From positions 290,743 through 354,742 of the forward strand of contig OY970171.1 in assembly GCA_963707575.1 (NCBI GenBank): DNA of 64,000 bases, read 5' to 3'. Of this stretch, positions 11,180-39,100 are shown one piece after another (positions within the stretch are counted from its first letter, which is position 1; the number at the start of each line of letters is the position of its first letter). The position numbers and the translations under genes are program-made. Below the pieces are notes generated by a model. It was not told the DNA's origin. It saw only the letters and a list, made by a program, of their open reading frames with translations, and searched no databases. The DNA is from an uncultured Gaiellaceae bacterium. GTDB taxonomy: Bacteria; Actinomycetota; Thermoleophilia; Gaiellales; Gaiellaceae.

Positions 11180-11189
<10 letters not shown>
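9951..11189 (+). CDS. trpE: anthranilate synthase component I
   Basis: 412 aa. SFLLESVE feedback motif, chorismate-binding core (GAPKVRAMQIVSELE, GPYAGAVGY, IAIRT). First gene of the trp operon. Confidence 0.9.
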
Positions 11190-11730
<541 letters not shown>

Positions 11731-11734
<4 letters not shown>

Positions 11735-15018: not shown

Positions 15019-15719
15019 CCAAGACTCTCGTCGTCTACTTGATGTCCGGGCGGGAAACGCCCGCGCTCGCGGAGGCGGCGGTCGAGGGCGGCGCCGATCT
15101 CGTCGAGCTCGGCTTCCCGTTCTCCGACCCGCTCGCGGACGGCCCGACGATCCGGCGCGCCGCGGAGCGGGCGCTCGCGGCCGGGATGCGGACCGCAGCC
15201 TGCCTCGACTGCCTCGCGCAGGTGCGGGCGCGCGTCGACGTGCCCCTCGTGCCGATGACCTACTCGTCGCTCCTCGAGGCGTACGGCTGGGAACGCTTCG
15301 CGCTCGACGCGCACGCGGCAGGCGCCGGCTCGCTGATCGTGGCCGACCTCCCCGTGGACGAACGGCCGGAGCTCCGGCGTGTGCAGCTGGTCGCCCCGAC
15401 CTCAACCGACGAGCGAATCGGGCTCGCGGCGGCGAGCACCGATGGGTGGCTCTACCTGGTCGCCCTCACCGGCACGACCGGTGCGCGCGCGGAGGCCTCG
15501 TCGACGCTCGCGGGCCTGGCGAAACGCGCGCGGCGAGTCGCAGCGGACACGCCGCTGTACGCCGGCTTCGGCATCTCCACGCCCGAGCAGGCACGGGTGG
15601 CGGCCGACGTCACGGATGGAGTCGTTGTCGGCTCCCGTGCCGTCGAGGTCGCCGAGGAGGGACCTGCGGCACTGCGCGCCTACGTGCGCTCGCTGCGCGT
15701 CGCGCTCGACGAGCCCTAA
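15015..15719 (+). CDS. trpA: tryptophan synthase alpha chain
   Basis: 234 aa. Motifs: [29 protein letters not shown] overlap with the trpB stop. Confidence 0.9.
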
Positions 15720-15855
15720 CCCGAATCGGCGATCAGAATCGCGCGGTTCGGGGAGCAGAAACGCGCTCTTCGGGGGATACAGGCCCCGCTGTTCGTCGGC
15801 AACTCTGGTGGGTGCACGTGGACGGGAGTCCACGGCACCGAAACCGGAGGGGAAA

Positions 15856-17472: not shown

Positions 17473-17481
17473 CCGATGGCG

Positions 17482-17512
17482 CGGGAGGGGCGGCGCACCG
17501 CCGCCCCTCCCG
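17482..17512 (+). terminator. GC-rich hairpin downstream of the S8 protease gene
   Basis: Perfect 14-bp stem CGGGAGGGGCGGCG / CGCCGCCCCTCCCG with a 3-nt loop, 10 nt after the stop codon. No T-tract. Confidence 0.6.
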
Positions 17513-17610
17513 GCCACGGACGAGGTAAATCCGGCGGCGCGGCTGCCGATGACGCGGACGAAGGCGCATCCCACTCCTTCGTCGAATACCGTGCCCAGGT
17601 GCAGCAACCC

Positions 17611-19824
17611 ATGAGCGTCCCTGCCGTTGCGGAGGGGGCAGGCTGGCAGTCCAAGCGGGTTCGCCGGCTGGAGCCGGCCGCCTGGGCGTACAGCTGGCTC
17701 GTCTTCCTCGTCGCCGCCGTCGCGGCGGTCCTTGCGGTCGCCACCGCCGCGGTCCCGACCAGCAGCGAATGGGTCGAGTTCGCGCTGCTCGCCCCGCTCG
17801 CCGCCCTCGCGCCCCTGCTCTCGGTCAGCATCGGCCGCAACCACAGCTTCCACACCGGCGCGGCCTTCATCGTCGCCGGCGCGATCGTCCTGCCCGCTCC
17901 GCTCGTCGTCGTGCTCGCGATCGTCCTGCACCTGCCCGAGTGGGTGAAGGAGCGCTACCCCTGGTACATGCAGGGCTTCAACATCGCGAACTACACGATC
18001 AGCGGACTGGCCGCCTGGTCGGTCGCCACGACGATCGGGAGCGGCAGCGATCTCAGGACGGCCCTCGGCGGAACCGCCGCGGCGGCAACCTTCGTGCTCG
18101 TGAACCATGGCCTGCTGGCGGGGATGCTGAAGCTCGCGCGGGGCCACTCGGTCCGCGGAGGCGGGCTCTTCTCCTCGATCAGCTTCGGCACCGACCTCGT
18201 GCTTGCGACCCTCGGCCTGACGGTAGCCGCCTTCGTCGTCGCGAACCCCTGGCTGCTACCCGCGCTGCTTGCGCCGCTGCTGCTCGCCCACCGCTCGCTC
18301 TCCGTCGTCGCGCTGCTGCGCGGCAGCGAGGAGCGGTTCCGGACGATGTTCGAGTCCGCCGCGACTGCAACCCTGCTCATCGGCGCCAACGGGCGGATCC
18401 TGACTGCCAACCGCGCCGCCGAAGAGCTCTTCAAGCTCGATCTCGCAACGCTCACCCGTATCGACACCGACGCATTGCTCCATCCCGACGAGGCGCCGGC
18501 GGACGATCTCGACAAGCTGCTGCGCGGCGAGCAAGAGCGGTACCGGGCCGAGCGGCGCCTCGTCGACGCCGACGGCGCCGTCATCTTCGCGCGCCTGGCG
18601 GTGTCGCTCGTCCGCGACGCCAACACGCAACCGCAGTACGCAATCGCGATGATCGAGGACGTCACCGAGCAGCACGAGCTCGCCGAGCGGCTGCGCCAGG
18701 CCCAGAAGCTGGAGGCGATCGGCCGCCTCGCCGGCGGCGTCGCGCACGACTTCAACAACATGCTGACGGCGATCGGCGGCTACAACACGTTCGCGCTCGA
18801 GCGCACCGAGCCGGGCACCCCGCTGCACGAGGACCTGCACGAGATCCGCAAGGCGACCGAACGCGCGACGCTGCTGACGCGCCAGCTGCTCGCGTTCAGC
18901 CGCAAGCAGATCCTGCAGCCGGAGCTGCTGAACCTGAACGCCGTCATTCTCGAGCTCGAGTCCATGCTGCGCCCGCTGATCGGAGAGGACGTCGTGTTGA
19001 CGACGAAGCTCGACCCCGCGCTCGGGCCGATCGAGGCGGATCCGGGCCAGCTGCAACAGGTGCTGATGAACCTCGTCGTGAACGCCCGCGACGCGATGCC
19101 CGGCGGCGGCACGATCGTGATCGAGACCGCGAACGCCGAGGTCGGAGACGACAGCGCCACGATCGAGGCCGGCCGCTACGTGACCCTGACGGTGCGGGAC
19201 ACCGGTCACGGCATCGACGCCCAGACCCTGGAGCAGATCTTCGAGCCCTTCTTCACCACGAAGGAGACCGGCAAGGGCACGGGCCTCGGGCTTGCCACGG
19301 TGTACGGGATCGTCAAGCAGAGCGGAGGCTATGTCGCCGTCGAGAGCGAGCCGGACGAAGGCACGGCCTTCACGGTGTACCTGCGCCGCGACGCCGAGGC
19401 GCGGGTGCCGCGGATCGAGCCGGTGCCGGATGACGCGGTGCCGCAGCCGGCGACGCACCCGGCCGCGGAGACCGTGCTCCTCGTCGAGGACGAGGAGGTC
19501 GTGCGCCGCCTCGTCCGGCAGGTGCTCGAGAACGACGGCTATCACGTGCTCGAGGCGCACGACGGCGAGGTCGCGCTCGAGCTCGCCCGTTCCACACCCG
19601 TGGATCTGCTCCTCACGGACCTCGTGATGCCGAAGGTCGGCGGCCGCGAGGTCGCCGACGGGCTGCGCCGCACGAATCCCGACCTGAAGGTGATCTACAT
19701 GTCGGGGTACGCGGACGGCGCCATCCTCGAGAACGGCGTCCTCCAGGCGGGGACCGAGCTGCTCGAGAAGCCGTTCGCCTTCTCCGCGCTGACGGAGAAG
19801 GTGCGCTCCGTCCTCGACGGCTAG
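17611..19824 (+). CDS. hybrid sensor histidine kinase (polytopic membrane domain - PAS - HisKA - HATPase - REC)
   Basis: About 8 predicted TM helices, then a PAS region. H-box GGVAHDFNNMLTAI, then N/G boxes (NLVVNARDAMP, GTGLGLATV). C-terminal receiver (VLLVEDEE...LLLTDLVMP). Start placed at ATG 17611 because the track start 17476 lies inside the upstream terminator hairpin. Confidence 0.8.
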   Translation: MSVPAVAEGAGWQSKRVRRLEPAAWAYSWLVFLVAAVAAVLAVATAAVPTSSEWVEFALLAPLAALAPLLSVSIGRNHSFHTGAAFIVAGAIVLPAPLVVVLAIVLHLPEWVKERYPWYMQGFNIANYTISGLAAWSVATTIGSGSDLRTALGGTAAAATFVLVNHGLLAGMLKLARGHSVRGGGLFSSISFGTDLVLATLGLTVAAFVVANPWLLPALLAPLLLAHRSLSVVALLRGSEERFRTMFESAATATLLIGANGRILTANRAAEELFKLDLATLTRIDTDALLHPDEAPADDLDKLLRGEQERYRAERRLVDADGAVIFARLAVSLVRDANTQPQYAIAMIEDVTEQHELAERLRQAQKLEAIGRLAGGVAHDFNNMLTAIGGYNTFALERTEPGTPLHEDLHEIRKATERATLLTRQLLAFSRKQILQPELLNLNAVILELESMLRPLIGEDVVLTTKLDPALGPIEADPGQLQQVLMNLVVNARDAMPGGGTIVIETANAEVGDDSATIEAGRYVTLTVRDTGHGIDAQTLEQIFEPFFTTKETGKGTGLGLATVYGIVKQSGGYVAVESEPDEGTAFTVYLRRDAEARVPRIEPVPDDAVPQPATHPAAETVLLVEDEEVVRRLVRQVLENDGYHVLEAHDGEVALELARSTPVDLLLTDLVMPKVGGREVADGLRRTNPDLKVIYMSGYADGAILENGVLQAGTELLEKPFAFSALTEKVRSVLDG

Positions 19825-27905: not shown

Positions 27906-30900
27906 CTACTTGAACTTGAAGCTCGCGACGTGGGTCGAGCCGTCCACGAGGGTGACGATGAGCTGCCGGCACGTGCCCACCCAGGCCTTGTTCGTCTTCC
28001 AGACGTAGTGGTACCGCTGCGAGGCTGCGTCGTAGCTGAGGCCGTTCGCCGCGGGGGAGTCGATCTCCTCGAGCGAGTCGTCCGGCTGGCTGGAGCTGCA
28101 GTTGACGCCGACGGAGGCCGGGCTCCCCGGCGCGAAGATGTTGAGGCCCCGATTTCCTCCGAGGCTGAACTTGATCGGCACGGAGCTGCCCGCCTTGACG
28201 ACATTGACGATCGGGGGATTGTCGACGGGCTCGAAGAAGCCCGTGAACGGCCACACGACGCGATAGGTTCGGGTCGCGGTCGTCGTGTGGCCGACGATGT
28301 CGGTCGCCGTCACCGTGAGCGTCTTCTCGCCGACCGTTCCGGTCGGGAGCGGGCTGCCGTTCGCGGTCGACCCGATGCACGACTTGACGCCGGAACCGGA
28401 GTCGAGGCACCTGAACGCTGCTGCGACGCTCTGGCCGAGCGTGAATGTGGCGTTGGGCGCCGGTGAGGTGATCAGGACCTGAGGCGCCGTCGCGTCGATC
28501 ACGAAGCGCTTCTCCGCGTGCTCGCCGGCCGCCGTGTCGACCTCGACCACGTGCAACCCGTCGCGGGTGACCGACGCGGGCAGCGAGGCAGGCGTCAAGC
28601 CGTCGATCGTCACCGCGGCGCCGTCCGTCGGCGTGACGTCGACGGTGACGGGGCCGGAGAAGTAGTCGGGCAGCCCCGGCGCCTGCGTGCCCGTGAGCTC
28701 GATCGTGATCCCGTTCGGCGGGTCGGCCGGCTCCGGCTGCGCCTGGAAGTAGTGCGCCTTGTTCGTGCTCATCGCGCAGTTCCCGTCGGCGTCGCATGCC
28801 TGCACGATGTACTGCACGTTCGGACCGATCACCGGCGCGCCGCCGGTCCAGCGGCAGCTCCCCGGCGCGTCTGGCAGCAGGTCGACGCCGACCCAGGTGT
28901 CCTGGGTACCGGCGGTGTCGCCGAGGTCGTCGAAGAGGATGAAGACCCGCACGGCCGTGCAGGCGGACACCTCGAAGCCGACGTTCGTCCCGAATCGGGT
29001 CGCCTCGCTCGACACGATCGTCGGCGGCTCGTAGTCGGTGCTCGCGTTGTAGAAGACGCGGCCGCGGATCTGTGTCCAGCGACGCATGACGCTCGCTCCC
29101 TCGCTGCCGGGCGTGTCGTCGGTGAAGTACTGGCTCGTCGCGAGGTTGAGCTGCGAGCGGGTGCCCGTGACGCTCCTCGCAGTCGCCATCGTCGGAATGC
29201 CGCTCGGGAAGCCGATGTCGGTGAACGTCGGCTCGGGCGAGAGCGCCGTCGAGTCCGTCGTCGGCATCAGGAGCGACGGATCCCACGGCGAGTCGTCCTG
29301 CGAGACCAGCGACTCGACCAGGGCCGAGTGCGCGCGCTCGCCGGTCCTCGTCGCCGGCAGGGCGAGCGTCGAGACGAGCGGCCGGTAGTGGACGCCCGTG
29401 ACCTGGCCCGCGTTCGTCCAGAAGTCGCCGAACTCTCGGTTCTCGCGCGTGAAAGCGGGCACGACCGCGAACTCGCCCGAGCGGAGCTGGCTGACGGGAT
29501 CCAGCGTGATCGGGCCCTGGTTCGGAGCGGTTGCGCTCGTCGCACCGGGAATGGTCGTCGGTGCGGGCGGCTGCGGTGGCGGCGGCGAGCCGACGGGGGG
29601 CGGCGCTGAGCCGACACCGAAGAACGGCAGTCCGTAGAGCGTCGCCTGGAGGGTCGTCTTCTGCTCGTAGGCGCTGAAGCTTGCCCGGCCGAGGAAGTAG
29701 TCGGCCTTCGCCTGCGCGAGCGCCTCGCCGATCGTGAGCGAGCCGTTCAGGTTCCCCGCGAGCTCAGCCATCAGCTGCTCCGACCAGGCGATGGAATCGG
29801 TCGAGCCGAGCCCGAAGCCGGTGTTCGCCGCGAAGGCGCTGCGCTGCTCGCCGTACGCCTCGGCCCAGTCGCGCTTGATCGGGCTCGTCTCGCCCACGAT
29901 CACGTTCGCGACGGGGAGTCCTGCGTGGCAGCCGATCGTGAAGACGATCCGCCGCGGCATCGAGCCGGGACGGGCATCGAGGTCGGCAGTCGTGAACAGG
30001 TCGGAGGTGTCCCCCGTCGTGTTCCCGGCTGCCGGCAGCGCGCTGTGGTGGTCGTAGTGGCCGTTCAGCTGGTTGATCCCGGACGCGCCGGTCGTCGGGA
30101 AGAGCGCGCCCAGGAGCCCGACGCGGTTCCAGGTGTCGTCGATGAGCGTGCGCGTATTGGCGGCGCCGACGATTCCCGAGAGCTCCGAGGACGCGGCGGC
30201 GGTACCGTCGCTCGCGAAGTCGTAGCCGGAGCTGAAGGCCGAGTTGCGCGCCAGGATCCCGCTCGCGGCGACGAACTCGTTCAGCTGGCCGATGATCTGG
30301 CCCGGGCTCTCCACCAGCCGGCCGCCCGCGAGATCGGGCACGAAGACCTGCCGGGCGCCGACCTGGATCGGGTCGGTGTCGAGGTACGGGTCGTCCGAGA
30401 GCAGGTTCTCGCGAATGAAGGCGCCCGAGTACTGGTTGCCGGTGAACGTCGAGGCGTTGCCGCTCTCGTTGGCGATCAGCGTCAGGTCCGGGACACGGAA
30501 GAACGGGATCTGGTCGTCGCCGCCCACGAAGACGATGTACTTCAGCGACGGGCGGGTCAGGCGGATCGCGTTCACGGTGGCGGCGATCCCGCTCGCGACC
30601 GCGTTCGCGAGCTCGGGTGCGCACGGGTTCGCGTCCCAGGCGGTGTAGAGCGCGGCGTTGCTCCCGTAGGCCTCGACGGGGACGACGGCGCCGGCGACGC
30701 CGAGCGCGTTCCGGCCGGCGACGTTCGCGAGCGAGGCGAGCACGTCGTTCGCGGGGCCGGTGCCGTACGTCCGGCCGAGCCGGAGCCTGTTGACGAGGAA
30801 GAGCGTGTTCACGTTCGCCGGGATCGCGACCTGCGCACCCGCCGTGCCCTGGGTCGGGAACGGGAAGCTGCGCGGCGCGCACGGCCCGACGGTCGGCGGT

Positions 30901-33900
30901 GGGGTGGTCGTCACGCGCAGGGTGTAGGGCCGCGGCGAGCTCGCGTCGTTGTAGCCCGACACCTGCAGGACGTAGTAGCCGCCCCCGCCGAGCGAGATCG
31001 CCGAGACGTCTTCGGGATCGTTGCCGCGGAAGATCGACTGGCCGGCGATCGGCAGATCGACCGTCGAGATGTCCTGCAGCCCTCCCGGCTCGAGCTGGCG
31101 GCCGAGATCGGTCAGGCCGATCCCGTCGTCCGGGATCGGGGCGTTCTGCAACGGGACGCCGACGGTGCCCGTGTTGACGAGCGGCGGCACCGTCGCCGGG
31201 GCATAGAGCGTCAGGTCGTAGTCCGCGGCCAGGTTCGTCATCCGCACGGTCAGCCGGGTACCGGCCGGCGGGGTCGGGATGCGGTAGAAGTCGGTATCGC
31301 CCTCCTGGTCGAGGTAGGAGAGATCGACCTCGACGTCGGGCTCGACGATCGGCGCGGTCGCCGGATCGTCGTTCGGCTCGAAGACGGTGCGCACGACGAC
31401 GTCGTGGGTGTCGGCCGCCTCGAGCTCGGTGCCCGCGGCGGTGACGGACAGCGACGCGCTCGTCGGCCCGAGATCGATGCCGGGGAGAGCGTCGAAGTCG
31501 AGCCGGTGCTCCACGCCGAAGGCGACGTCCGCGACCGTCCACGTCAGGGTGCGGCCGTCCGTCGAGACGCTCGGGTCCGGTAGCGGGGCCGTGGAGCCGC
31601 CGGCGACGAGCGCTGAGGTGCCCGCGGCGTAGCGCCACCCCTTCGGCAACGTGACGGCCACCGTGGCCTCGCCCGCGCTGCCCTCGTCTCCCGCGAGCGT
31701 GAACGCTGCGTGCCACGTCAGCCCGCCGTTCGTCCCGAAGCTGCCGAGCACGTCCGCGGAGAGCGTCTCCCAGGCGACGCCGGCGCGCGTGATGAAGAGT
31801 GCGAGCAGGTCGTTGAACGTGAGCCCGGAGGGCGTCGGCAGGCCCTCGAGCAGGTCGCCGACGGTCAGCGGCGGCTCGCCGTAGAAGATCAGGTCGCCGA
31901 GCGTGAAGCCGCCGAGCGAACCGGCGAGGTGCGAGAGCGTGGCCGTCTCCTTGATGTGCCCGGCCGCGAAGGCAGCGCCGAGCGTCGCCTCGGTCGTCAC
32001 GGTCAGGACGTCGGCCGGGTTGCGCAGCCCGGCGACGGGAATCGAGCCGAGCGGCGACGAGGTGGCCAGGATCCGGCGCAGCGACAGCTCGCCGAAGCCG
32101 GAGGCTGCGAGGTCGAAGTTGTCGATCGGGAAGTTGTCGATCGGCGACACCGACAACGGCATGTTGTCGATGGGGAAGTTGTCGATCGGCATGTTGTCGA
32201 TCGGGAAGTTGTCGATCGGGAAGTTGTCGATCGGGAAGTTGTCGATCGGGAAGTTGTCGATCGGCGCGCCGGTGAGCGCCGCCCCGAGCACGGTCTGCGA
32301 GCCGATCGTCTGCGCCCGGTTGGCGGGCGTGCAGTTGACGGGCGGGCCGCTCAGGGCGGCGCACCAGTCGGTCAGCGCGTCTCCCCCGCCCAGCGGGTTG
32401 ATCTGCGAGAGCGGGATCGCGCCGACGGCGAGCGCCTCGAAGCCGAGCCGCCGCAGCTTCGAGCTGCCGAAGTCCAGCTGCTCGAACAGGAGCTGCGGCG
32501 TGCTGCTGCCCGGCGTGAGCGCCGGCGAGGGCGGCGTGGCGAGCACGAGCTGCGCCAGCGAGACGCTTTGCGGAGGCACACCGGCGTACCGCGAGCCCTC
32601 GAGCACCTTCGGCCAGCCACCGGGATACGTGATCCCGATCGTCGAGAGCGGCACGTCGTCGAGCTCGGAGGCGACCGTCGGCGCATCGAACGGGAAGTTG
32701 TCGATCGGGAAGTTGTCGATGGGGAAGTTGTCGATCGGGAAGTTGTCGATCGGGAAGTTGTCGATCGGGAAGTTGTCGATCGGAAAGTTGTCAATGGGGA
32801 AGTTGTCGATCGGGAAGTTGTCGATCGGCGCCGGGGCGACGGCGGATGCGGGAGCCGGCTGGAGGATCGAGAGCGGGAAGTTGTCGATCGGCAGCTGACT
32901 GGCGCCGGCCTCGGTCGAGTCCGCATCGGTGGTCAGCGCGGCGGTGATCCCCGTCGGCGTGGCCGCCGGGCTGAGGTCGCGCACGAAGACGTCGATGGCC
33001 GCGTTCGTGTCCTCCTCAGGCCCCAGCAGGTCGTCCGCCGCAGAGGAGAACGTCACATGGCGGCCGTCGGCGCTGAGGGCGGACAGCAGCCCGTTGTGGC
33101 TGGAGCCGTTCCCGGCGACGCCGGCCGGAGTCAGGTCGACGACGCGCGTGGTACCGCCCGCGAGGTCGCGGGCGTAGACGTGGATCCCGCCCGCGTCGGT
33201 CAGCGGGCTCAGGTTGGACGCGGCCGAGGTGAACGAGACGATCAGGCCGTCGTCGCTGAGCGCAGGCGCCGAGGCCTGCGCGTTCCCGCGCTCACCCGTC
33301 CCGCTCAGGTCTGCGATCTCGGTCGTCGCGGCCGCGAGGTCGCGCACGAAGACGTGGCCGTTCGAATCGGCCGGAATGCCCGGCGCGAGGTTCTCGGCGT
33401 TCGAGAGGAAGGCGATCCTGCTTCCGTCGGCACTGAGCGAGGGCGGCCACGCCGGCGAGCTGTCCGCGTCGCCCTGAGCCCCCGCGGAGGAGATGCTGAC
33501 GCGCGTCGTCTCGCCGGTCTCGCGGTCGTGCACGAACACGTCTGTCGCTCCGTTTGTGTCGTTCTCGACGAGGTTGCTCGCGGCCGAGGCGAAGGCGACG
33601 AAGCGCCCGTTGCCGCTCAGCGCGGGATAAAAGCTCGGCCCGTTCGCCTGGACGCCGGCGCTCGAGACGCTGACCCGCTCCGGGCCGGCGCTGCCCAGCT
33701 CGCGCACGTAGACGTCGGACACGCCGTTCGAGTCCTCGCCCTCGGCCAGGAGGTTGGTCGCGACAGTGTCGAACGCGACGGCGTTGCCTGCGGCGGAGAT
33801 CGAGGGGTGCTGGCTCGAGCCGTTTGCGATCGACGCGCCGACCGCATCGACGAGCTGCGTGGAGCCCGCGTCGAGGCTGCGCCGGTAAACGTGCCAGGTA

Positions 33901-36002
33901 CCCGTCCCGGGGACGCAGCTCTCGCCGACGCACGCGAGGTTCGAGGCGAGCGACTGGAACGCGGCGAAGCCGCCGCCGCCCGCGACCTGAACCCAGCCGC
34001 TGTTCGCGTTGCCGGGCTGGACGCCGTCCGGGTTCGGGATGCTCGAGCTGAGCAACGTCGTGGTGCCGGCCGCGCGGTCGCGCGCATAGGCCTGGACGAG
34101 CTCGAGGCTCCCGATCGGGGTGAGGTTCAGCGCCGCGGACTCGAAGCCGACGAGGTTCCCGTCGTCGCTCAGGGACGGGAAGACGCTCGCGCCGCCGTTC
34201 ACCTGGATCCCCGCAGCGGACAGGCTGGCGATGAACGTCTCGCCGGTCACATCCGGGGCGGGCGCGGCCAGGATCGTCCAGGTGCGCACTTCCGGGGTCG
34301 CGTCCGTGTTGCCGGACGGGTCGGTCGCCTGCGCCGTGAAGGTGTGCTCGCCGAGCCCGAGCTCCGAGAAGAACTCGGTGCCCTCGCAGCCGTCCACCAG
34401 CTCGCCGTCGAGCGTGCAGGCGAACGTCGAGCCTTCCTCGTTCGAGCCGACCGTAAAGGAGGCGACCGTGTCGGTCGTCGACTCGCCGGGGCCACCCGCG
34501 ATCTCGGTCACCGGCGGCGTCCGGTCGAGGTCGACCTCGATCGAGTTCACATAGGACGCCCCACCCTCCTCGAGCGCACGCGCGGTGACGATCGCGCCGT
34601 CTCCGACGACGTCGCCGGCCTCGAAGCTCGCCTCGTAGGGAGCCTCGGAGTCGGTTCCGAGCGCGTGCGTGCCGGCGTCGTCCGTGTAGGAGAACTGCAT
34701 CTGGATGATCGCGTGCACGTCGCCCCCGGAGGCGCTGACGGCGACCGTGCCCACGACCGTCGTCCCGGCGACCGGCGCGGAGATCGCCGGCACCGGCTGC
34801 CAGTCGGGGAAGCCGTTGCGCGCGCCCGCGACGACCTGCGTGGGATCGCCGCCGTCGGCGCTGATCGTGGCGAGGTCGAAGTTGCTGTTGCCGAACCGCG
34901 TCGTGACGTAGGCGACGCGAGACCCGTCGGGCGACCAGGCGGGATCGGCGTTGTACGCGCCGTCCGCCGTCAGCGGGGTGGCGACCGGCTCCGCGGTCAC
35001 CGGGTCGACCGTCCACAGCTCGTGCTGGTCGCCGGCGCCGGCCCGGACGAAGACGATCTTCCCGCGCACTCCCCAGTCGGGGTCGGTGTCGCTCTGCGGT
35101 CCGCTGGTGAGGACCCGCAGGTCGCCGGTCAGGTCGACACGCTTCGTGAAGATCTGGCAGGGCTGGCCCGCTGGGCAGTACTGGAATGTCAGCTCGTCTC
35201 CGTTGGGGGAGAAGGATGGCGCGCCGGCGGGGTGCTCGCCCCGGAAGATCGTGGTGACTGCGCGCGTGGCGACGTCCATGACGTAGATCCCGTTGAAACC
35301 GACGACTCGGTCACTCTCGAAGGCGATCAAGCGTCCGTCGGGAGACCAGGCAGGTGCGCCGTCGTAGCGGTCGTTGTTCGTCAGCTGAACGCGCCCATCC
35401 GGCCCATCGAGGTACAGCTCGAAGGCGCTGGCCGGGTCCGCGACGTCCTTGGAGGCGAACACGGTGCGGGAGCCGTCAGGCGAGACCGCAACCAGCTGGT
35501 CGGCAGACGGATCGGTGACGACGCCCTGCAGACCGCTGCCGACCGGGCGAACGGAGTAGATGTCGTGGTTCTGGTCGGGAAGGCTCGTCGAGCGGAGGAA
35601 GAAGATCCGGCCGTTGCCCGGCAGCTCGAGCGGCTGGATCGTGTAGCTCTGGTCGAGCGCCTCGGAGAGCACGTAGCCGAGGCAGTTGCCCGCCTTGTCC
35701 ACGGCGACCCACGGATGTGTGAGCCAGGTGGGCTGCGAGTAGCCGGCGCCGTCCTGCAGCGTCGCATAGTGGATGCGGTCACCCTCGTAGTCGAGCCAGT
35801 AGATGTCCACCTCCGTGCCGCTCTCGTTCACGAAGGTGATCTGCGAGGGCGTCGAGCCGTCGATCGATTGCGCCTGCGTGACGTGGCAGTTCGGGTTCAC
35901 GACGGCCGAGCCCGACGGCACGACGACGGCAGCGGCCAGGGCAACCGCCATCAAGCCGAGCGCAGCCACCGTCCAGGTGTGACGGCGTAGCGAAGCCCTC
36001 AA
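27906..36002 (-). CDS. giant (~2,698 aa) secreted multidomain protein: signal peptide, VHL-beta-like domain, TolB/PD40-type propellers, Ig-like domains, two PIDNF repeat arrays, PPC domain, C25 (gingipain)-like peptidase domain, Ig-like/C-terminal beta-sandwich domains
   Basis: Uninterrupted ORF 27906..36281. Start proposed at TTG 36002 (MRASLRRHTWTVAALGLMAVALAAAVVVPSGSA). Farther upstream the ORF overlaps the divergent cyclase gene and encodes low-complexity sequence. Domain motifs are quoted in the findings. Confidence 0.8.
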   Translation of the reverse strand: MRASLRRHTWTVAALGLMAVALAAAVVVPSGSAVVNPNCHVTQAQSIDGSTPSQITFVNESGTEVDIYWLDYEGDRIHYATLQDGAGYSQPTWLTHPWVAVDKAGNCLGYVLSEALDQSYTIQPLELPGNGRIFFLRSTSLPDQNHDIYSVRPVGSGLQGVVTDPSADQLVAVSPDGSRTVFASKDVADPASAFELYLDGPDGRVQLTNNDRYDGAPAWSPDGRLIAFESDRVVGFNGIYVMDVATRAVTTIFRGEHPAGAPSFSPNGDELTFQYCPAGQPCQIFTKRVDLTGDLRVLTSGPQSDTDPDWGVRGKIVFVRAGAGDQHELWTVDPVTAEPVATPLTADGAYNADPAWSPDGSRVAYVTTRFGNSNFDLATISADGGDPTQVVAGARNGFPDWQPVPAISAPVAGTTVVGTVAVSASGGDVHAIIQMQFSYTDDAGTHALGTDSEAPYEASFEAGDVVGDGAIVTARALEEGGASYVNSIEVDLDRTPPVTEIAGGPGESTTDTVASFTVGSNEEGSTFACTLDGELVDGCEGTEFFSELGLGEHTFTAQATDPSGNTDATPEVRTWTILAAPAPDVTGETFIASLSAAGIQVNGGASVFPSLSDDGNLVGFESAALNLTPIGSLELVQAYARDRAAGTTTLLSSSIPNPDGVQPGNANSGWVQVAGGGGFAAFQSLASNLACVGESCVPGTGTWHVYRRSLDAGSTQLVDAVGASIANGSSQHPSISAAGNAVAFDTVATNLLAEGEDSNGVSDVYVRELGSAGPERVSVSSAGVQANGPSFYPALSGNGRFVAFASAASNLVENDTNGATDVFVHDRETGETTRVSISSAGAQGDADSSPAWPPSLSADGSRIAFLSNAENLAPGIPADSNGHVFVRDLAAATTEIADLSGTGERGNAQASAPALSDDGLIVSFTSAASNLSPLTDAGGIHVYARDLAGGTTRVVDLTPAGVAGNGSSHNGLLSALSADGRHVTFSSAADDLLGPEEDTNAAIDVFVRDLSPAATPTGITAALTTDADSTEAGASQLPIDNFPLSILQPAPASAVAPAPIDNFPIDNFPIDNFPIDNFPIDNFPIDNFPIDNFPIDNFPIDNFPFDAPTVASELDDVPLSTIGITYPGGWPKVLEGSRYAGVPPQSVSLAQLVLATPPSPALTPGSSTPQLLFEQLDFGSSKLRRLGFEALAVGAIPLSQINPLGGGDALTDWCAALSGPPVNCTPANRAQTIGSQTVLGAALTGAPIDNFPIDNFPIDNFPIDNFPIDNMPIDNFPIDNMPLSVSPIDNFPIDNFDLAASGFGELSLRRILATSSPLGSIPVAGLRNPADVLTVTTEATLGAAFAAGHIKETATLSHLAGSLGGFTLGDLIFYGEPPLTVGDLLEGLPTPSGLTFNDLLALFITRAGVAWETLSADVLGSFGTNGGLTWHAAFTLAGDEGSAGEATVAVTLPKGWRYAAGTSALVAGGSTAPLPDPSVSTDGRTLTWTVADVAFGVEHRLDFDALPGIDLGPTSASLSVTAAGTELEAADTHDVVVRTVFEPNDDPATAPIVEPDVEVDLSYLDQEGDTDFYRIPTPPAGTRLTVRMTNLAADYDLTLYAPATVPPLVNTGTVGVPLQNAPIPDDGIGLTDLGRQLEPGGLQDISTVDLPIAGQSIFRGNDPEDVSAISLGGGGYYVLQVSGYNDASSPRPYTLRVTTTPPPTVGPCAPRSFPFPTQGTAGAQVAIPANVNTLFLVNRLRLGRTYGTGPANDVLASLANVAGRNALGVAGAVVPVEAYGSNAALYTAWDANPCAPELANAVASGIAATVNAIRLTRPSLKYIVFVGGDDQIPFFRVPDLTLIANESGNASTFTGNQYSGAFIRENLLSDDPYLDTDPIQVGARQVFVPDLAGGRLVESPGQIIGQLNEFVAASGILARNSAFSSGYDFASDGTAAASSELSGIVGAANTRTLIDDTWNRVGLLGALFPTTGASGINQLNGHYDHHSALPAAGNTTGDTSDLFTTADLDARPGSMPRRIVFTIGCHAGLPVANVIVGETSPIKRDWAEAYGEQRSAFAANTGFGLGSTDSIAWSEQLMAELAGNLNGSLTIGEALAQAKADYFLGRASFSAYEQKTTLQATLYGLPFFGVGSAPPPVGSPPPPQPPAPTTIPGATSATAPNQGPITLDPVSQLRSGEFAVVPAFTRENREFGDFWTNAGQVTGVHYRPLVSTLALPATRTGERAHSALVESLVSQDDSPWDPSLLMPTTDSTALSPEPTFTDIGFPSGIPTMATARSVTGTRSQLNLATSQYFTDDTPGSEGASVMRRWTQIRGRVFYNASTDYEPPTIVSSEATRFGTNVGFEVSACTAVRVFILFDDLGDTAGTQDTWVGVDLLPDAPGSCRWTGGAPVIGPNVQYIVQACDADGNCAMSTNKAHYFQAQPEPADPPNGITIELTGTQAPGLPDYFSGPVTVDVTPTDGAAVTIDGLTPASLPASVTRDGLHVVEVDTAAGEHAEKRFVIDATAPQVLITSPAPNATFTLGQSVAAAFRCLDSGSGVKSCIGSTANGSPLPTGTVGEKTLTVTATDIVGHTTTATRTYRVVWPFTGFFEPVDNPPIVNVVKAGSSVPIKFSLGGNRGLNIFAPGSPASVGVNCSSSQPDDSLEEIDSPAANGLSYDAASQRYHYVWKTNKAWVGTCRQLIVTLVDGSTHVASFKFK
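32115..32264 (-). repeat. tandem 15-bp repeat array 1 inside the giant gene (10 units; PIDNF/PIDNM, one degenerate PLSVS unit)
   Basis: Plus-strand unit GAAGTTGTCGATCGG. 6 units are identical. Variants are CATGTTGTCGATCGG, CATGTTGTCGATGGG and CGACACCGACAACGG. Confidence 0.95.
32692..32826 (-). repeat. tandem 15-bp repeat array 2 inside the giant gene (9 units, all PIDNF), plus one isolated unit at 32876..32890
   Basis: Plus-strand unit GGGAAGTTGTCGATC. 7 of 9 units are identical; the others differ by 1 and 3 nt. Confidence 0.95.
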
Positions 36003-36105
36003 TTTGTCGAGCCTGCCGCAGATCCTGGCCCCTCCTCCCGTTGCCGCCGACCCTACTCCTCTCCGCCGGGATTTCCTAGAGATTTCGTCGCTTTCGTGCG
36101 CAACA

Positions 36106-39100
36106 ATGGGTAGCTCGGTGACGCAGACGCTGACGCAGCCGGGCCTCGAGCCGTACGTCCCGCGCCTCGTGCGCACGTGGAACGACGTGCGCGGAGGGGT
36201 CGACGCGATCGAGGTGGACGGCACGCTCGTCTCCGTCGACCTGGCCGGCTTCACCGCGCTCTCGGAGCGGCTGGCCGCCAAGGGCCGCGCCGGCGCCGAG
36301 GAGCTGATCCTCCTGATCAGCGGCGTCTACGAGGGGCTGATCGGGATCGCAGGGCGCCGCGGCGGCGACGTGCTCAAGTTCCGCGGCGACGCGCTCCTGA
36401 TCTTCTTCGAGGACGACGACCACGCCCTCCGCGCCTGCATCGCCGCGGGCGAGATGCAGTGGTTGATCGAAGAGACGGGCCGCACGCGCAGCTCGGTCGG
36501 CGCCGTCGAGCTGACGATGGCGGTCGGCATCCACTCCGGCCCGTGCCACTTCTTCCTCTCCGGCCGCTCGCACCGCGAGCTCGTGATCGCCGGGCCGGCC
36601 GCGACGGGGACGCTGCGGCTCGAGGACGCGGCGAGCTCCCGGGAGATCCTCGTCAGCGCTGCGACCGCGCACGCGCTCGACCCGGGCTGGCTCGGGGCCG
36701 CGCGCGACGGCGCGGTGCTGCTGAAGCCCGGCCTCCACAACGGGGTGCCGGACGAGCCCGGCGCCCCCGACGAGCCGGCCACGGACGCCGACCTCGTCGA
36801 GTTCGTCCCGCTTCCGCTACGACCCGTGCTGGCCTCCGGGGCGGCCGAGGCCGAGCACCGGCAGGCGACGGTCGCCTTCGTGAAGTTCACGGGCGCCGAC
36901 GAGCTGCTCGCTCGGGAGGGCATCGACGGGCTCGGCGAGCGGATCACACGCCTCGGCGACATCGTCGACGGGACGGTCGACGGGCTCGGGATCACCTGGC
37001 TCGAGTCGGACATCGACCTCGACGGGGGCAAGGTCTATCTCACGGCGGGGGCGCCGGCGACGCCTGGAGGCGACGAGGAGAGGATGCTGCTGGCGCTCCG
37101 CGCGATCCTCGACGAGGAGTGCGGCCTCACGCTGCGCGCCGGGGTCAACCGCGGCCACGTCTTCGCGGGCGAGATCGGCGCCGAGCGCCGGCGCACCTAC
37201 GCCGTGATGGGCGACACGGTCAATCTCGCCGCCCGCCTCGCAGGACGTGCTCAGCCGGGCCAGATCCTCGCCACCGGGGACGTGCTCGAGCGGGCCCGCA
37301 CCCGCTTCGAGACGAGCTCTCAGCCGTTCCTGATGAAAGGCAAGGAGCGTGCCGTCACCGCGTACAGCGTCGGCGCCGTCGTCGGCCTCCGCGAGGAGCA
37401 GCTGCCGGAGCGCCTGCCGCTCATCGGCCGCGAATCGGAGCTCACTGCGCTGCGCGAGGCGGTCGACTCGGCACGCCAGCGCCAGAGCCGCCTGATCGAG
37501 CTCGTCGGCGAGCCGGGAATCGGCAAGACGCGGTTGATCGACGAGCTGACCGCGCTCTCGCTGGGCTTCACGCAGCTCGTGGCGCGCTCGGAGGCCTATG
37601 CGACGGCGGCGCCGTACTTCGTCTTCCGCCCGCTGCTGCGGCAGCTGGCGGGGATCCTGCCGACCGCCGCCCGAGACGACGCCGGCCAGCAGCTCACTGC
37701 GTGGGTGCAGGGGGTGATGCCGGATCAGCTGCCGTGGTTGCCGCTGCTCGGTGTCGCGTTCGACGCGGAGGTCGAACCGACGCCCGAGACCGATGCACTC
37801 GCGGCGTCGATGCGGCGACAGCGGCTGCACGAGGCGGTCGAGCAATTCCTCGTGCGCATCCTGATGATGCCGACCCTGCTCGTCTTCGAGGACACCCACT
37901 GGCTTGACGACGCCTCACGTGAGCTGCTGCTGCACCTCGCGCTGAGACCGTCTCCGCGCCCGTGGCTGATCTGCGTGACTCGCCGCCCACGTGGCGCGTC
38001 CTTCGTCGAGGAGGGCGGCGCGGAAGGGCTCGTGATCGCGCTCGAGCCACTCGCGCCGGAGCTGACTGCGTCGCTCGCCCGGATCGTCGACAACGAGCTG
38101 TCGCTGTCCGAGGACGAGCTCGAATCGCTGGTTGCGCGCGCAGGCGGCAATCCGCTGTTCGTTCGTGAGCTCGTCGCTGCGATCCGCCGCGGCGCAGCCG
38201 GCGAGCTGCCCGAGACGGTCGAGCGCCTGATGACCGAGCGCATCGACACGCTCGACCCCGAGGACCGGCTGCTCCTCCGCGTCGCCGCCGTGGTCGGCCC
38301 GCGCTTCGACCTCGAGCTGATGCGGGAGCTGCTCGGCGACGAGCTCGGCGACGTCGGCGAGATCGAGCGCTGGCACCGTCTCGGCGAGTTTGTCGAGTGG
38401 CGCGGCGAGGACACGCTCCGGTTCCGCCACGACCTCTTCCGCGCCGCAGCCTACGAAGGACTGTCCTTCCAGCGTCGACACGACGTGCATGCGCGCGTCG
38501 GCGCGGCGCTCGAGCGCCGCGCGGGCGAGCGAACCGACGAGGCGGCGGGGCTGCTCTCGCTCCACTTCCTCGAGGGCCGCGAGCCCGAGAAGGCCTGGCG
38601 CTACTCGGTCGCCGCGGGCCGGCGTGCCCAGGGGCTGTGGTCGAACGTCGATGCGGCCGAGTTCTACGAGCGCGCCCTGAGCGCGGCCGACGACCTCGAC
38701 GGGGCCGACCCGGTGGAGGTGTCGGCCGTCGCCGAGTCGCTCGGAGACGTCTGCGAGCTCGCCGCTCGCTACGACGAGGCGAGCGAGGCCTACGGCCGCG
38801 CCCGCGCGCTCGTCGGCGACGACGTCGTCGCGTCGGCTCGGCTGCTGCGCAAGGAGGGTGTCCTGCACGAGCGCCACGGCGGCTACGACGGCGCGCTCGA
38901 GCTCTACCGCCGGGCACTGGAGTTGCTCGACTTTCCGGCCGGCGGCGGCGCCCCGGCCTCGGACCGGGTCGAGCTCGAGCTCGAATACGCAACCGTGCTC
39001 TTCCGGCAGGGGCACTTCGAGGAGTGCCTGGGCTGGGCGGAGCGGGCGGCCGAGCACGCGCAGGACGCAGACGACCGGCCCGGCCTCGCCCACGCCTACC

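What the first reader, a model, noticed from the sequence alone, without database searches (positions are those of the whole stretch)
32115..32890. Two arrays of near-identical 15-bp tandem repeats encoding (PIDNF)n inside the giant gene
Seen: array 1 (32115..32264) has 10 units and array 2 (32692..32826) has 9 units, plus a solitary unit at 32876..32890. The arrays lie ~430 bp apart. Most units are identical at the nucleotide level (minus strand CCG/CCC ATC GAC AAC TTC).

They are in-frame and have no spacers, so they are not CRISPR. Nucleotide-level identity implies recent expansion or ongoing homogenisation. This makes the locus a candidate for slipped-strand copy-number variation, which would always preserve the frame because each unit is 15 bp.

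Inference: with period 5 and an N-F core, the peptide loosely fits the pentapeptide-repeat A(D/N)(L/F)XX pattern (D-N-F-P-I). It could form a short quadrilateral beta-helix or a Pro-rich spacer.
Basis: partly seen in the sequence, partly recalled or inferred. Interest (0 to 1): 0.7.

Follow-up and report, generated by a model that had tools for sequence, protein, structure and literature searches.

The report
Proline-type pentapeptide repeats in surface protease
The two (PIDNF)n arrays are real and belong to a large, undescribed family of giant secreted bacterial proteases whose proline-containing five-residue repeats are identical within a protein but differ between lineages, and they probably form a short rigid beta-helix whose length differs slightly between strains.

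Summary
There are 9 in-frame units at 32694..32828, 10 at 32115..32264 (7 PIDNF, 2 PIDNM, 1 PLSVS) and one solitary unit at 32877..32891. All lie in a ~2,700-aa secreted protein of a soil Gaiellaceae bacterium.

The arrays are not a local oddity. An exhaustive HMMER search found 813 protein clusters that share the surrounding module: array A, a 143-aa domain, array B, a helical segment, a pilin-like beta-sandwich, a PPC domain and a C25-like cysteine peptidase. Of the top 150 hits, 133 carry period-5 arrays at the same places. The unit follows P-[LIV]-x-x-hydrophobic, is uniform within a protein and differs between lineages (78 types), which points to concerted evolution.

The 5-residue phase survives interruptions. 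The interrupting units resemble canonical pentapeptide repeats, a profile of the module matches solved pentapeptide-repeat proteins, and one homologue's array passes Pfam Pentapeptide_4. The window's own arrays fail every Pentapeptide HMM, and AlphaFold2 leaves them unstructured (pLDDT 24-29).

Extreme GC3 codon bias explains most of the nucleotide identity. Copy number is 8-9 and 9-10 across species. In five 99.7-99.9 % identical proteins it is 7-8 and 9-11, and this is their only length difference.

Interest is moderate.

The parts
27906..36002 (-). Giant gene. The longest ORF runs to 36281 (2,791 codons). The likely start is the TTG at 36002, giving about 2,698 aa and an N-terminal signal-peptide-like segment at 35904..35987.
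   Evidence: ORF list, translation, GC3 of 0.93, candidate starts.
32877..32891 (-). Solitary PIDNF unit (aa 1131-1135), followed by a degenerate PLSIL unit.
   Evidence: It is present in L001, L003, L004 and L007. In L005 and L006 it has diverged to IADF / IAGF.
32694..32828 (-). Array A: 9 x PIDNF (aa 1152-1196). Seven units read CCGATCGACAACTTC, one reads CCCATTGACAACTTT and one reads CCCATCGACAACTTC. A degenerate PFDAP unit follows at 32679..32693.
   Evidence: Relatives carry 7-9 units.
32265..32693 (-). Inter-array domain of 143 aa; its 429-nt length is the same in all ten related assemblies examined. It holds a degenerate six-unit mini-array (DFGSS KLRRL GFEAL AVGAI PLSQI NPLGG, 32385..32474) and a conserved Trp-Cys...Cys segment (32331..32369).
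   Evidence: In relatives the mini-array is made of true units.
32115..32264 (-). Array B: 10 units (aa 1340-1389), in the order PIDNF x4, PIDNM, PIDNF, PIDNM, PLSVS, PIDNF x2.
   Evidence: The same internal pattern occurs in L001 and L003-L006. L007 has 9 units with PIDNM spread to 6 of them. Strain variants have 9-11 units.
32025..32114 (-). Six degenerate units in phase with array B (DLAAS GFGEL SLRRI LATSS PLGSI PVAGL). Three more lie upstream at 32265..32309 (TIGSQ TVLGA ALTGA).
   Evidence: Position 2 is hydrophobic in 8 of these 9 flanking units, p=1e-4. DLAAS is the commonest interrupting unit in the family.
31392..31721 (-). Beta-sandwich domain of the module (aa ~1521-1630). It follows a helical 'FTLGDL...TVGDLL...FNDLL' segment at 31791..31907.
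   Evidence: AlphaFold2 pLDDT is 70-87 here. Foldseek matches collagen-adhesin and pilin CnaB-type domains, E down to 7e-5.
30906..31298 (-). PPC-like (pre-peptidase C-terminal) domain with a long loop insert at 31020..31190. This is a third array site. It is degenerate here (VPLQNAPIPDD, DLPIAGQSI) but carries true units in P0002 and P0005.
   Evidence: Pfam PPC is weak, E=0.012. Alignments with P0002. P0005 sequence.
29700..30905 (-). C25-like (gingipain-type, clan CD) cysteine peptidase domain. The putative catalytic motifs are NGHYDHH (30045..30065) and TIGCHAG (29919..29939).
   Evidence: It is 47 % identical to the region of P0019 that passes Pfam Peptidase_C25. The window protein itself gives no C25 hit.
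27909..28244 (-). C-terminal PxKF ('rightmost') domain.
   Evidence: NCBIfam NF038114, E=2.8e-40, 137 bits against a cut-off of 35.
32892..35867 (-). N-terminal half of the protein. It holds a VHL-beta-like domain (35697..35867), two blocks of PD40/TolB-type beta-propeller repeats and Ig-like domains.
   Evidence: Pfam PD40 E=1e-27, VHL 28-29 bits against a cut-off of 21, and Big_7. TolB-like hits in NCBIfam.

Best explanation
The arrays encode a proline-type variant of the pentapeptide repeat. In PRP notation the unit is F(i-2) P(i-1) I(i) D(i+1) N(i+2).

They are the local form of a conserved ~500-aa module. The module sits between variable N-terminal binding domains (here a VHL-like domain and PD40 propellers) and a PPC plus C25-like cysteine peptidase. 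It occurs in a large family of giant secreted or surface proteins of soil Actinomycetota and other phyla.

Inferred: each run of units, together with its in-phase degenerate flanking units, most likely folds into a short four-sided right-handed beta-helix, either the Rfr fold or a wider relative. Ile and Phe would fill the core, and Pro, Asp and Asn would face outward. The run would then act as a rigid scaffold or spacer with a lineage-specific surface.

Shown: three processes together keep the units identical:
- purifying selection on the pattern P-[LIV]-x-x-hydrophobic;
- extreme GC3 codon bias, which leaves essentially one codon for each of I, D, N and F;
- occasional unequal recombination, slippage or gene conversion between 15-bp units.

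The last process adds or removes whole units, always in frame. Array A has 7-9 units and array B 9-11 in close relatives. It can also spread a variant unit, as with PIDNM in L007. Over long times it has replaced the unit type in all arrays of a protein, which is concerted evolution.

What is shown: repeat anatomy, family membership, concerted evolution and copy-number differences between assemblies. What is inferred: the fold and the scaffold role.
For: **Family**
- An exhaustive HMMER search with aa 1108-1640 gave 813 representatives at E<=1e-3 and 255 at E<=1e-10.
- Of the top 150, 133 have at least 3 perfect period-5 units. There are 78 unit types, and 73 start with P.
- Position 2 is always L, I or V. 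Position 5 is mostly I, T, V, L or F.
- Array positions are conserved. This includes the interruption 'xxSxS-P' followed by two units and 'DLAxS' in array B.

**Structural periodicity**
- Short gaps between in-phase units are multiples of 5: gap 10 occurs 363 times, 15 occurs 33 times, 20 and 25 occur 19 times each. Every gap length from 6 to 23 that is not a multiple of 5 occurs at most 10 times; gap 24 occurs 13 times.
- The interrupting pentamers have the consensus [D/N/A]-[L/I/V]-[A/G/S]-[G/A/S]-[S/T/A], which is PRP-like.
- In the window, position 2 of the flanking degenerate units is hydrophobic in 8 of 9, p=1e-4.

**Link to PRPs**
- The profile of the module matches solved structures, and the top 9 hits are all PRPs or PRP-based designs: 4yfo E=8.6e-5, 2j8k E=0.022. 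The alignment pairs P with D/N and position 2 with the central Leu.
- Array A of homologue P0146 (unit QLANT) passes Pfam Pentapeptide_4 at 48.1 bits against a cut-off of 38. It also gives weak HetL and Alr5209 hits.

**Selection and codon bias**
- The same unit is kept in seven genomes whose flanks are 70-98 % identical.
- The expected probability of the exact 15-mer is 0.52; the observed count is 15 of 17.
- PIESS units in L002 mix TCG, TCC and AGC serine codons.

**Copy-number change and conversion**
- Counts for arrays A and B are given.
- PIDNM has spread across units in L007.

**Context**
- Pilin/CnaB-like beta-sandwich.
- C25 homology.
- PxKF domain.
Against: - The window's arrays match no Pfam Pentapeptide model even at E<=10.
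- Only 2 of 5 positions fit the published PRP consensus (PMC8145042).
- AlphaFold2 gives pLDDT 24-37 and no secondary structure for both arrays, alone and with a 10-sequence alignment. The alignment is shallow, however.
- The predicted core residues Ile+Phe occupy about 357 cubic angstroms per unit, against 255-279 for canonical Ala+Leu/Phe. This volume ranges from 229 to 357 across the family, which is odd for one tight fold.
- PIDNF falls marginally on the disordered side of a charge-hydropathy plot.
- In a rigid Rfr helix each added unit would turn the chain exit by about 90 degrees. Tolerance of +/-1-2 units between strains therefore fits a flexible element at least as well.
- E-values between repetitive sequences are inflated.
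- The strain-level copy-number differences come from short-read SPAdes contigs.
Confidence: 0.5

Rival explanations
1. The arrays are not folded. They would be extended, flexible or elastic hydrophobic-proline tethers, comparable to extensin, elastin-like or PT-type linkers. They would set the reach between the N-terminal binding domains and the peptidase, and copy-number change would tune that length.
For: - AlphaFold2 pLDDT is 24-29 with no secondary structure.
- Pfam gives only sub-threshold Extensin_1 hits.
- There is one Pro in every five residues.
- Strains tolerate +/-1-2 units.
- Array length ranges from 3 to about 30 units across the family.
- PIDNF is borderline disordered on charge-hydropathy.
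Against: - The units are 40 % bulky hydrophobic. Position 2 is L, I or V in all 73 P-type unit types, which is unlike known linkers.
- 56 of 68 unit types fall on the folded side of the charge-hydropathy plot. 52 of 68 fall below the Pro+Gly level that I recall as typical of elastomers.
- The strict preservation of the 5-residue phase through interruptions, and the PRP-like interrupting units, are not expected of a disordered tether.
- One homologue's array is a Pfam-grade pentapeptide repeat.
Confidence: 0.3
2. The units are multivalent short linear motifs. They would be repeated docking or processing sites read by a co-evolving partner: the protein's own C25-like peptidase (autoprocessing), its VHL-like domain (possibly after proline hydroxylation), or another protein. 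That would explain why all copies in a protein carry the same sequence and change together.
For: - Unit sequence is uniform within a protein and differs between lineages. This includes units placed singly in loops, for example the PPC loop in P0002 and P0005.
- A clan-CD-type peptidase lies in the same chain.
- The VHL-beta-like domain retains the residues that bind hydroxyproline in human VHL (plus my recollection of the pocket residues).
Against: - Positions 3 and 4 range over G, S, D, N, R, H, A, Q and E. No residue type is conserved at a would-be scissile or recognised position.
- The VHL-like domain occurs only in the PIDNF clade, whereas arrays occur family-wide with quite different N-terminal domains such as NosD beta-helix, SBP_bac_5 and DUF642.
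- No prolyl hydroxylase was found among the 27 neighbouring ORFs scanned.
- Gene conversion alone can explain the uniformity.
Confidence: 0.1
3. The locus is an adaptive contingency locus. Rapid slipped-strand change of copy number would create functionally distinct surface variants, for example to escape phage or predators.
For: In five 99.7-99.9 % identical proteins the arrays are the only sites of length difference. Marker units differ as well.
Against: - The range is narrow: 7-9 and 9-11 units.
- Array B's internal pattern is identical in six genomes whose flanks are down to 70 % identical.
- Every change is in frame, so there is no on/off switching.
- The longest perfectly periodic stretches are only 62-72 nt.
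- The strain-level evidence comes from short-read assemblies.
Confidence: 0.05
4. The arrays are an assembly collapse or expansion artefact, or are not translated.
For: Short-read unitigs from soil metagenomes break at both arrays. No RNA run could be listed.
Against: - The arrays have the same structure, spacing and frame in eleven independent assemblies made with three kinds of assembler.
- GC3 is 0.93 through the region.
- The arrays are conserved as peptide in homologues of 24-85 % identity.
Confidence: 0.01

Closest known systems
Pentapeptide repeat proteins (Rfr fold; Pfam PF00805 / PF13599; e.g. MfpA, Qnr, HetL, Np275/Np276, Rfr32)
   Same: - The period is 5, with at least 8 contiguous units.
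- Hydrophobic residues occupy the two inward positions (i and i-2), and small or polar residues occupy i+1 and i+2.
- Interrupting units have the form (S/T/A)(D/N)Lxx.
- The module profile matches solved PRPs.
- One homologue passes Pentapeptide_4.
- PRP domains also occur as scaffolds inside larger secreted proteins such as NleL/SopA and SV2 (PMC8145042).
   Different: - Pro replaces the D/N at i-1 in nearly every unit.
- Position i-2 is bulky (F or I) instead of A, S or T.
- The centre is I rather than L or F.
- Units are perfectly identical within a protein and are replaced in concert between lineages. Canonical PRPs have heterogeneous units.
- There is no Pfam hit for this protein, and the fold is not predicted by AlphaFold2.
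Gingipain-type (Peptidase_C25, clan CD) multidomain surface proteases
   Same: The protein is large and secreted. It combines a C25-like His/Cys domain with Ig-like and adhesin-like domains.
   Different: - The host is an actinobacterium (Gaiellaceae), not Bacteroidota.
- There is no type IX secretion CTD; the C-terminus is a PxKF domain.
- The peptidase is preceded by the pentapeptide-array module and a PPC domain.
- The window protein itself falls below the Pfam C25 threshold.
In-frame tandem-repeat surface proteins with copy-number variation and concerted evolution (e.g. streptococcal alpha-C/Rib, fungal Als, Plasmodium CSP NANP repeats)
   Same: Units are identical or nearly so, are kept uniform within a gene, vary in whole units between strains and always stay in frame.
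   Different: - The unit is only 5 residues, not a folded domain of 70-100 aa.
- The copy-number range is very narrow.
- The unit pattern is conserved across a very large and divergent family.
Pro-rich repetitive linkers and elastomers (extensin SPPPP, elastin VPGXG, TonB EP/KP, PT linkers)
   Same: Proline recurs at a regular spacing in a short repeat. Pfam gives sub-threshold Extensin_1 hits. The AlphaFold2 confidence is low.
   Different: - There are two bulky hydrophobic residues per five, and no Pro-Gly turn motif.
- The phase is preserved through non-proline interruptions.
- The similarity to PRPs is absent from these linkers.

Membership tests
Pentapeptide repeat proteins (PRP, Rfr fold) | [quoted passage not shown] | tested here: met
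   There are 9 uninterrupted units in array A. Array B has 10 in-phase units, plus 9 in-phase degenerate flanking units.
Pentapeptide repeat proteins (PRP, Rfr fold) | Units fit the consensus (A/C/S/V/T/L/I)(D/N/S/K/E/I/R)(L/F)(S/T/R/E/Q/K/V/D)(G/D/E/N/R/Q/K) (PMC8145042) | tested here: not met
In register F-P-I-D-N only i+1 (D) and i+2 (N) fit.
Pentapeptide repeat proteins (PRP, Rfr fold) | Match to the Pfam Pentapeptide models (PF00805, PF13576, PF13599) above the gathering score | tested here: not met
   The window segment gives no hit at E<=10. In the family, P0146 passes PF13599 (48.1 bits against 38) and reaches 20.1 against 20.2 for PF00805. Two of 12 module sequences give weak PF13599 hits.
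Pentapeptide repeat proteins (PRP, Rfr fold) | Sequence-profile similarity to PRPs of solved structure | tested here: met
   Profile A3 against the PDB: the top 9 hits are all PRPs or PRP-based designs, with E from 8.6e-5 to 0.17, and the alignment runs ungapped over ~160 positions. Caveat: both sides are repetitive, so the E-values are optimistic.
Pentapeptide repeat proteins (PRP, Rfr fold) | [quoted passage not shown] | tested here: inconclusive
   AlphaFold2 on the single sequence and on a 10-sequence alignment gives pLDDT 24-37 and coil for the arrays. This neither supports nor excludes the fold, because the alignment is shallow.
Peptidase family C25 (gingipain-like, clan CD) | Match to Pfam PF01364, with a catalytic His and Cys | tested here: inconclusive
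   The window protein gives no PF01364 hit at E<=10. However, aa 1732-2194 are 47 % identical to the stretch of P0019 that passes PF01364 (48.8 bits against 23). The motifs NGHYDH and GCHAG align with NSHFDH and GCHSG. Catalytic activity is not testable here.
Slipped-strand / unequal-recombination variable tandem repeat | Copy number differs between closely related genomes while the flanks are conserved | tested here: met
   Five proteins that are 99.7-99.9 % identical differ only by 7 or 8 units in array A and 9, 10 or 11 units in array B, and marker units differ too. Species-level counts are 8-9 and 9-10. Caveat: the five are from short-read SPAdes contigs.
CRISPR array | Direct repeats separated by unique spacers, non-coding | tested here: not met
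   The units are contiguous, have no spacers and lie in frame within a coding ORF.

The most novel reading that the evidence does not exclude
The P-[LIV]-x-x-hydrophobic arrays define a repeat class of their own, with a fold not yet represented among solved structures. It could be a wider or differently wound proline-cornered solenoid, or an ordered hydrophobic-proline spring. Their within-protein uniformity would be functionally required, for instance because identical units stack into ladders, or because a co-evolving reader in the same protein recognises them.
Probability: 0.12. Interest if true: 0.8.

Novelty: new variant of a known kind. Interest (0 to 1): 0.55.

Why it matters
If this reading holds, pentapeptide repeats extend to a proline-containing class that the current Pfam and NCBIfam models miss. 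The class is perfectly homogenised within each protein and occurs in more than 800 clusters of giant secreted peptidase proteins, found largely in metagenome assemblies (the organisms identified here are soil Gaiellaceae/Actinomycetes and Acidimicrobiales MAGs).

The family offers three things:
- a natural series of 78 unit types on one scaffold for studying how beta-solenoid or linker sequence relates to structure;
- a clean case of concerted evolution of a 15-bp coding repeat under extreme codon bias;
- a cautionary example that nucleotide-identical repeats in high-GC genomes need not be young.

Tried and rejected
- **Pfam and NCBIfam on the arrays.** No Pentapeptide hit. The only matches were sub-threshold Extensin_1 and a spurious CefA hit.
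- **Literature.** Full-text searches for PIDNF and for doubled units of six types found nothing relevant. A search for PxKF also found nothing.
- **Word-indexed homologue search.** It returned only 2-5 hits in each of three attempts.
- **AlphaFold2.** Both runs left the arrays at pLDDT below 40. Foldseek on the model was informative only for the beta-sandwich.
- **Read-level copy number.** Short-read unitigs from soil runs X1 and X2 stop at the arrays. No Nanopore run and no RNA run could be listed.
- **One continuous solenoid from array A to array B.** Rejected. Arrays A and B are out of phase by 3. Across the family, the distance over the Trp-Cys...Cys segment shows no mod-5 preference: 26, 21, 18, 18, 17.
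Rejected; see the interpretation field.
- **Protease-site idea with a conserved P1 residue.** Not supported, because positions 3 and 4 vary too much.
- **Nearby prolyl hydroxylase.** None found among the 27 neighbouring ORFs scanned. About 15 ORFs of the window were not scanned.
- **Antisense ORF 31903..32898 (+).** Dismissed as a mirror of the coding frame. Its GC1 is 0.47 against about 0.7 for real genes.
Full report
**1. The observation**

The window is high-GC (about 70-74 %). The region lies in a minus-strand ORF, 27906..36281, of 2,791 codons with GC3 of 0.93. The likely start is the TTG at 36002, ahead of a signal-peptide-like segment.

Tandem Repeats Finder reports two period-15 arrays, at 32115..32264 and 32686..32828. 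In the reading frame they are:
- array A: 9 x PIDNF (32694..32828, aa 1152-1196);
- array B: 10 units (32115..32264, aa 1340-1389), in the order PIDNF x4, PIDNM, PIDNF, PIDNM, PLSVS, PIDNF x2;
- a solitary PIDNF at 32877..32891.

Fifteen of the 20 units read exactly CCGATCGACAACTTC. That 15-mer occurs nowhere else in the window.

**2. The host protein and organism**

From the N-terminus, the protein contains:
- a VHL-beta-like domain, two blocks of PD40/TolB-type propeller repeats and Ig-like domains;
- the array region;
- a helical segment and a beta-sandwich that Foldseek matches to collagen-adhesin and pilin CnaB-type domains;
- a weak PPC domain;
- a region 47 % identical to the Pfam-positive Peptidase_C25 domain of homologue P0019, with aligned His and Cys motifs;
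- a C-terminal PxKF domain.

The neighbouring genes are an adenylate/guanylate-cyclase-AAA-TPR regulator, cNMP-binding proteins and an amino-acid ABC transporter.

The closest genomes are uncultured Gaiellaceae and Actinomycetes MAGs from soil. Soil and permafrost metagenomes hold 16-37 % of the region's 31-mers.

**3. The arrays are a family trait**

The word-indexed protein search found almost nothing. It did find P0002, which is 32 % identical and has the same layout with the unit PIESS instead of PIDNF.

The exhaustive HMMER search with aa 1108-1640 found 813 cluster representatives at E<=1e-3 and 255 at E<=1e-10. Among the best 150:
- 133 carry at least three perfect period-5 units;
- each protein uses one unit type throughout all its arrays, up to 15 arrays in P0007;
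- the type differs between proteins, with 78 types seen: PIDNF, PIAQQ, PIQNL, PINTL, PINGL, PLGSI, PLSSI, PLDSI, PVGSI, PLRSI and others.

Position 1 is Pro in 73 types. Position 2 is always L, I or V. Positions 3 and 4 are small or polar. Position 5 is mostly I, T, V, L or F.

Array positions and substructure are conserved. This includes the interruption in array B followed by two units and 'DLAxS'. A third array site lies in a loop of the PPC domain.

The pattern is concerted evolution on top of a conserved structural template. Neither Pfam nor NCBIfam has a model covering the arrays. The literature search found no description.

**4. What the repeat is**

Four observations tie it to the pentapeptide-repeat (PRP) class.

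- (a) *Phase.* Short gaps between in-phase units are overwhelmingly multiples of five: 363, 33, 19 and 19 cases for gaps of 10, 15, 20 and 25. Every gap length from 6 to 23 that is not a multiple of five occurs at most 10 times; gap 24 occurs 13 times.
- (b) *Interrupting units.* The 455 interrupting pentamers have the consensus [D/N/A]-[L/I/V]-[A/G/S]-[G/A/S]-[S/T/A]. Where Pro is absent, its place is taken mainly by Asp or Asn, the hallmark of PRP position i-1 (consensus from PMC8145042).
- (c) *Profile.* A profile of the module matches solved structures, and its nine best hits are all PRPs or PRP-based designs: 4yfo E=8.6e-5, 2j8k E=0.022. Pro aligns with D/N and position 2 with the central Leu.
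- (d) *A homologue.* In P0146 the unit is QLANT, and array A passes Pfam Pentapeptide_4 at 48.1 bits against 38.

In the window itself, nine degenerate units flank array B in phase. Position 2 is hydrophobic in eight of them, p=1e-4.

The register is therefore F(i-2) P(i-1) I(i) D(i+1) N(i+2).

Evidence against membership:
- The window's arrays fail every Pentapeptide HMM at E<=10.
- They fit the published consensus at only 2 of 5 positions.
- AlphaFold2 leaves them as low-confidence coil, with pLDDT 24-37.
- The would-be core (Ile+Phe) is about 30-40 % bulkier than canonical cores and varies widely across the family.

I therefore rate a PRP-like beta-helix as the most likely fold, at about one in two. 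A non-globular hydrophobic-proline tether is the main rival.

Arrays A and B are not one continuous solenoid. They are out of phase by 3, and the Trp-Cys...Cys segment between them shows no mod-5 constraint across the family.

**5. Why the units are identical, and whether copy number varies**

With this gene's codon usage (ATC 95 %, GAC 87 %, AAC 96 %, TTC 98 %, CCG 67 %), a PIDNF unit is expected to be the exact 15-mer 52 % of the time. The observed count is 15 of 17, p=0.002. Codon bias explains most of the nucleotide identity, though not all.

The same 15-mer dominates the arrays of seven genomes whose flanking protein is 70-98 % identical. The unit is therefore old and under peptide-level selection, not newly expanded.

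Two internal controls agree:
- The PIESS units of L002 mix TCG, TCC and AGC serine codons.
- A second pentapeptide array in this window, (ASWTS)13, is perfect as peptide but scrambled in its synonymous codons.

DNA-level exchange still occurs. In L007 the PIDNM variant, which differs by two nucleotide changes, occupies six units where other genomes have PIDNF. Over long times, the whole unit type has been replaced in every array of a protein.

Copy numbers for arrays A and B are:

| Assembly | A / B |
|---|---|
| window, L001 | 9 / 10 |
| L003, L004 | 8 / 10 |
| L005, L006 | 9 / 10 |
| L007 | 8 / 9 |

The inter-array spacing is 429 nt in all of them.

Within one 90 % cluster, five proteins that are 99.7-99.9 % identical over about 2,660 residues differ in length only at the arrays. 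Array A has 7 or 8 units and array B has 9, 10 or 11. These come from SPAdes short-read contigs, so some caution is needed. However, the variants also differ in marker units, and the perfectly periodic stretches (47-69 nt) are shorter than a typical ~150-nt short read.

Whole-unit, frame-preserving copy-number change is therefore real but narrow. That criterion is not met.

**6. Function**

What is shown:
- The arrays are a conserved part of a module that always precedes PPC plus a C25-like peptidase.
- The proteins that carry it have interchangeable N-terminal domains: PD40 propellers and a VHL-like domain here, and NosD beta-helix, SBP_bac_5 or DUF642 elsewhere.
- The module sits among adhesin- and pilin-like domains.

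What is inferred: the arrays act as a structural scaffold or spacer, either a rigid short beta-helix or a tether, with a lineage-specific exposed surface. That surface is acidic here, and basic or neutral in other lineages.

A role as repeated docking or cleavage motifs cannot be excluded. It is disfavoured because positions 3 and 4 are unconstrained.

**7. Novelty and verdict**

The repeat class and the protein family appear to be undescribed. No model in Pfam or NCBIfam and no paper in the searched library covers them. The best reading places them as a variant of a known kind, the pentapeptide repeat, rather than something categorically new.

It was right about the frame, about copy-number change and about a loose kinship with PRPs. 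It was wrong about the register and about what nucleotide identity implies. The specific Pfam test it proposed is negative.

Noticed in passing
window 17266..17472 (+), C-terminus of ORF 15379..17472: A second pentapeptide array. A subtilase (Pfam Peptidase_S8, E=5e-44) ends in 13 perfect A-S-W-T-S units, 7 and 6 separated by AAQLD. The units are perfect as peptide, but their Ala, Ser and Thr codons are scrambled (AGC/TCG/TCC, GCG/GCC/GCT, ACG/ACC), so the DNA is only 68 % periodic. This implies strong peptide-level selection on a Trp-every-fifth repeat. The gene lies directly downstream of the trp operon. Its function is unknown.
   Followed up: partly
window 35697..35867 (-), aa 139-195 of the giant protein: A VHL-beta-like domain (Pfam PF01847, 28-29 bits against a cut-off of 21). 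It aligns without gaps to human VHL (E=1.6e-4). The residues I recall as the hydroxyproline pocket (W88, Y98, S111, H115, W117) are matched by W, Y, T, H and W. It is notable in a protein whose repeats carry one Pro per unit. No prolyl hydroxylase was found among the 27 neighbouring ORFs scanned.
   Followed up: partly
window 31020..31190 (-), loop inside the PPC-like domain: A third array site. Homologues P0002 and P0005 carry true units here (PIESS x3 plus 1, and PVAQQ/PIAQQ x3). The window has only degenerate remnants (VPLQNAPIPDD, DLPIAGQSI). Units can therefore sit in a loop of a folded domain.
   Followed up: partly
L001 9920..9935 and further along the locus: The 95.7 %-identical contig L001 (ENA ERZ25039536) has about 60 gap openings over 21 kb relative to the window. 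One is an extra G just after array B, which splits the giant gene into fragments such as P0001. This looks like uncorrected long-read indel error rather than pseudogenisation.
   Followed up: partly
P0005 array B versus window array B (32115..32264): Units 5-7 keep Met or Phe at position 5 in both lineages (PIDNM/PIDNF/PIDNM against PIAQM/PIAQM/PIAQF). Positions 3-4 changed in every unit (DN to AQ), and position 5 became Gln elsewhere in P0005. Whole-unit homogenisation alone does not explain this. It suggests short-tract conversion or position-specific selection.
   Followed up: no
P0061 aa 2175-2377 and P0069 aa 2349-2534 (family members): Some family members carry canonical pentapeptide repeats of the A(N/D)L(S/T)G type near the C-terminus, in addition to the proline-type arrays.
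   Followed up: no
window 9951..15719 (+) and 17476..19824 (+): A complete-looking tryptophan biosynthesis cluster: anthranilate synthase, TrpD, a TrpC/F fusion, TrpB and TrpA. After the subtilase comes a hybrid PAS histidine kinase-response regulator.
   Followed up: no
L008 741..950 (Marinilabiliaceae MAG contig): A weak match (38 %, query residues 41-306) in a Bacteroidota genome. It probably reflects period-5 arrays outside Actinomycetota. It was not examined.
   Followed up: no
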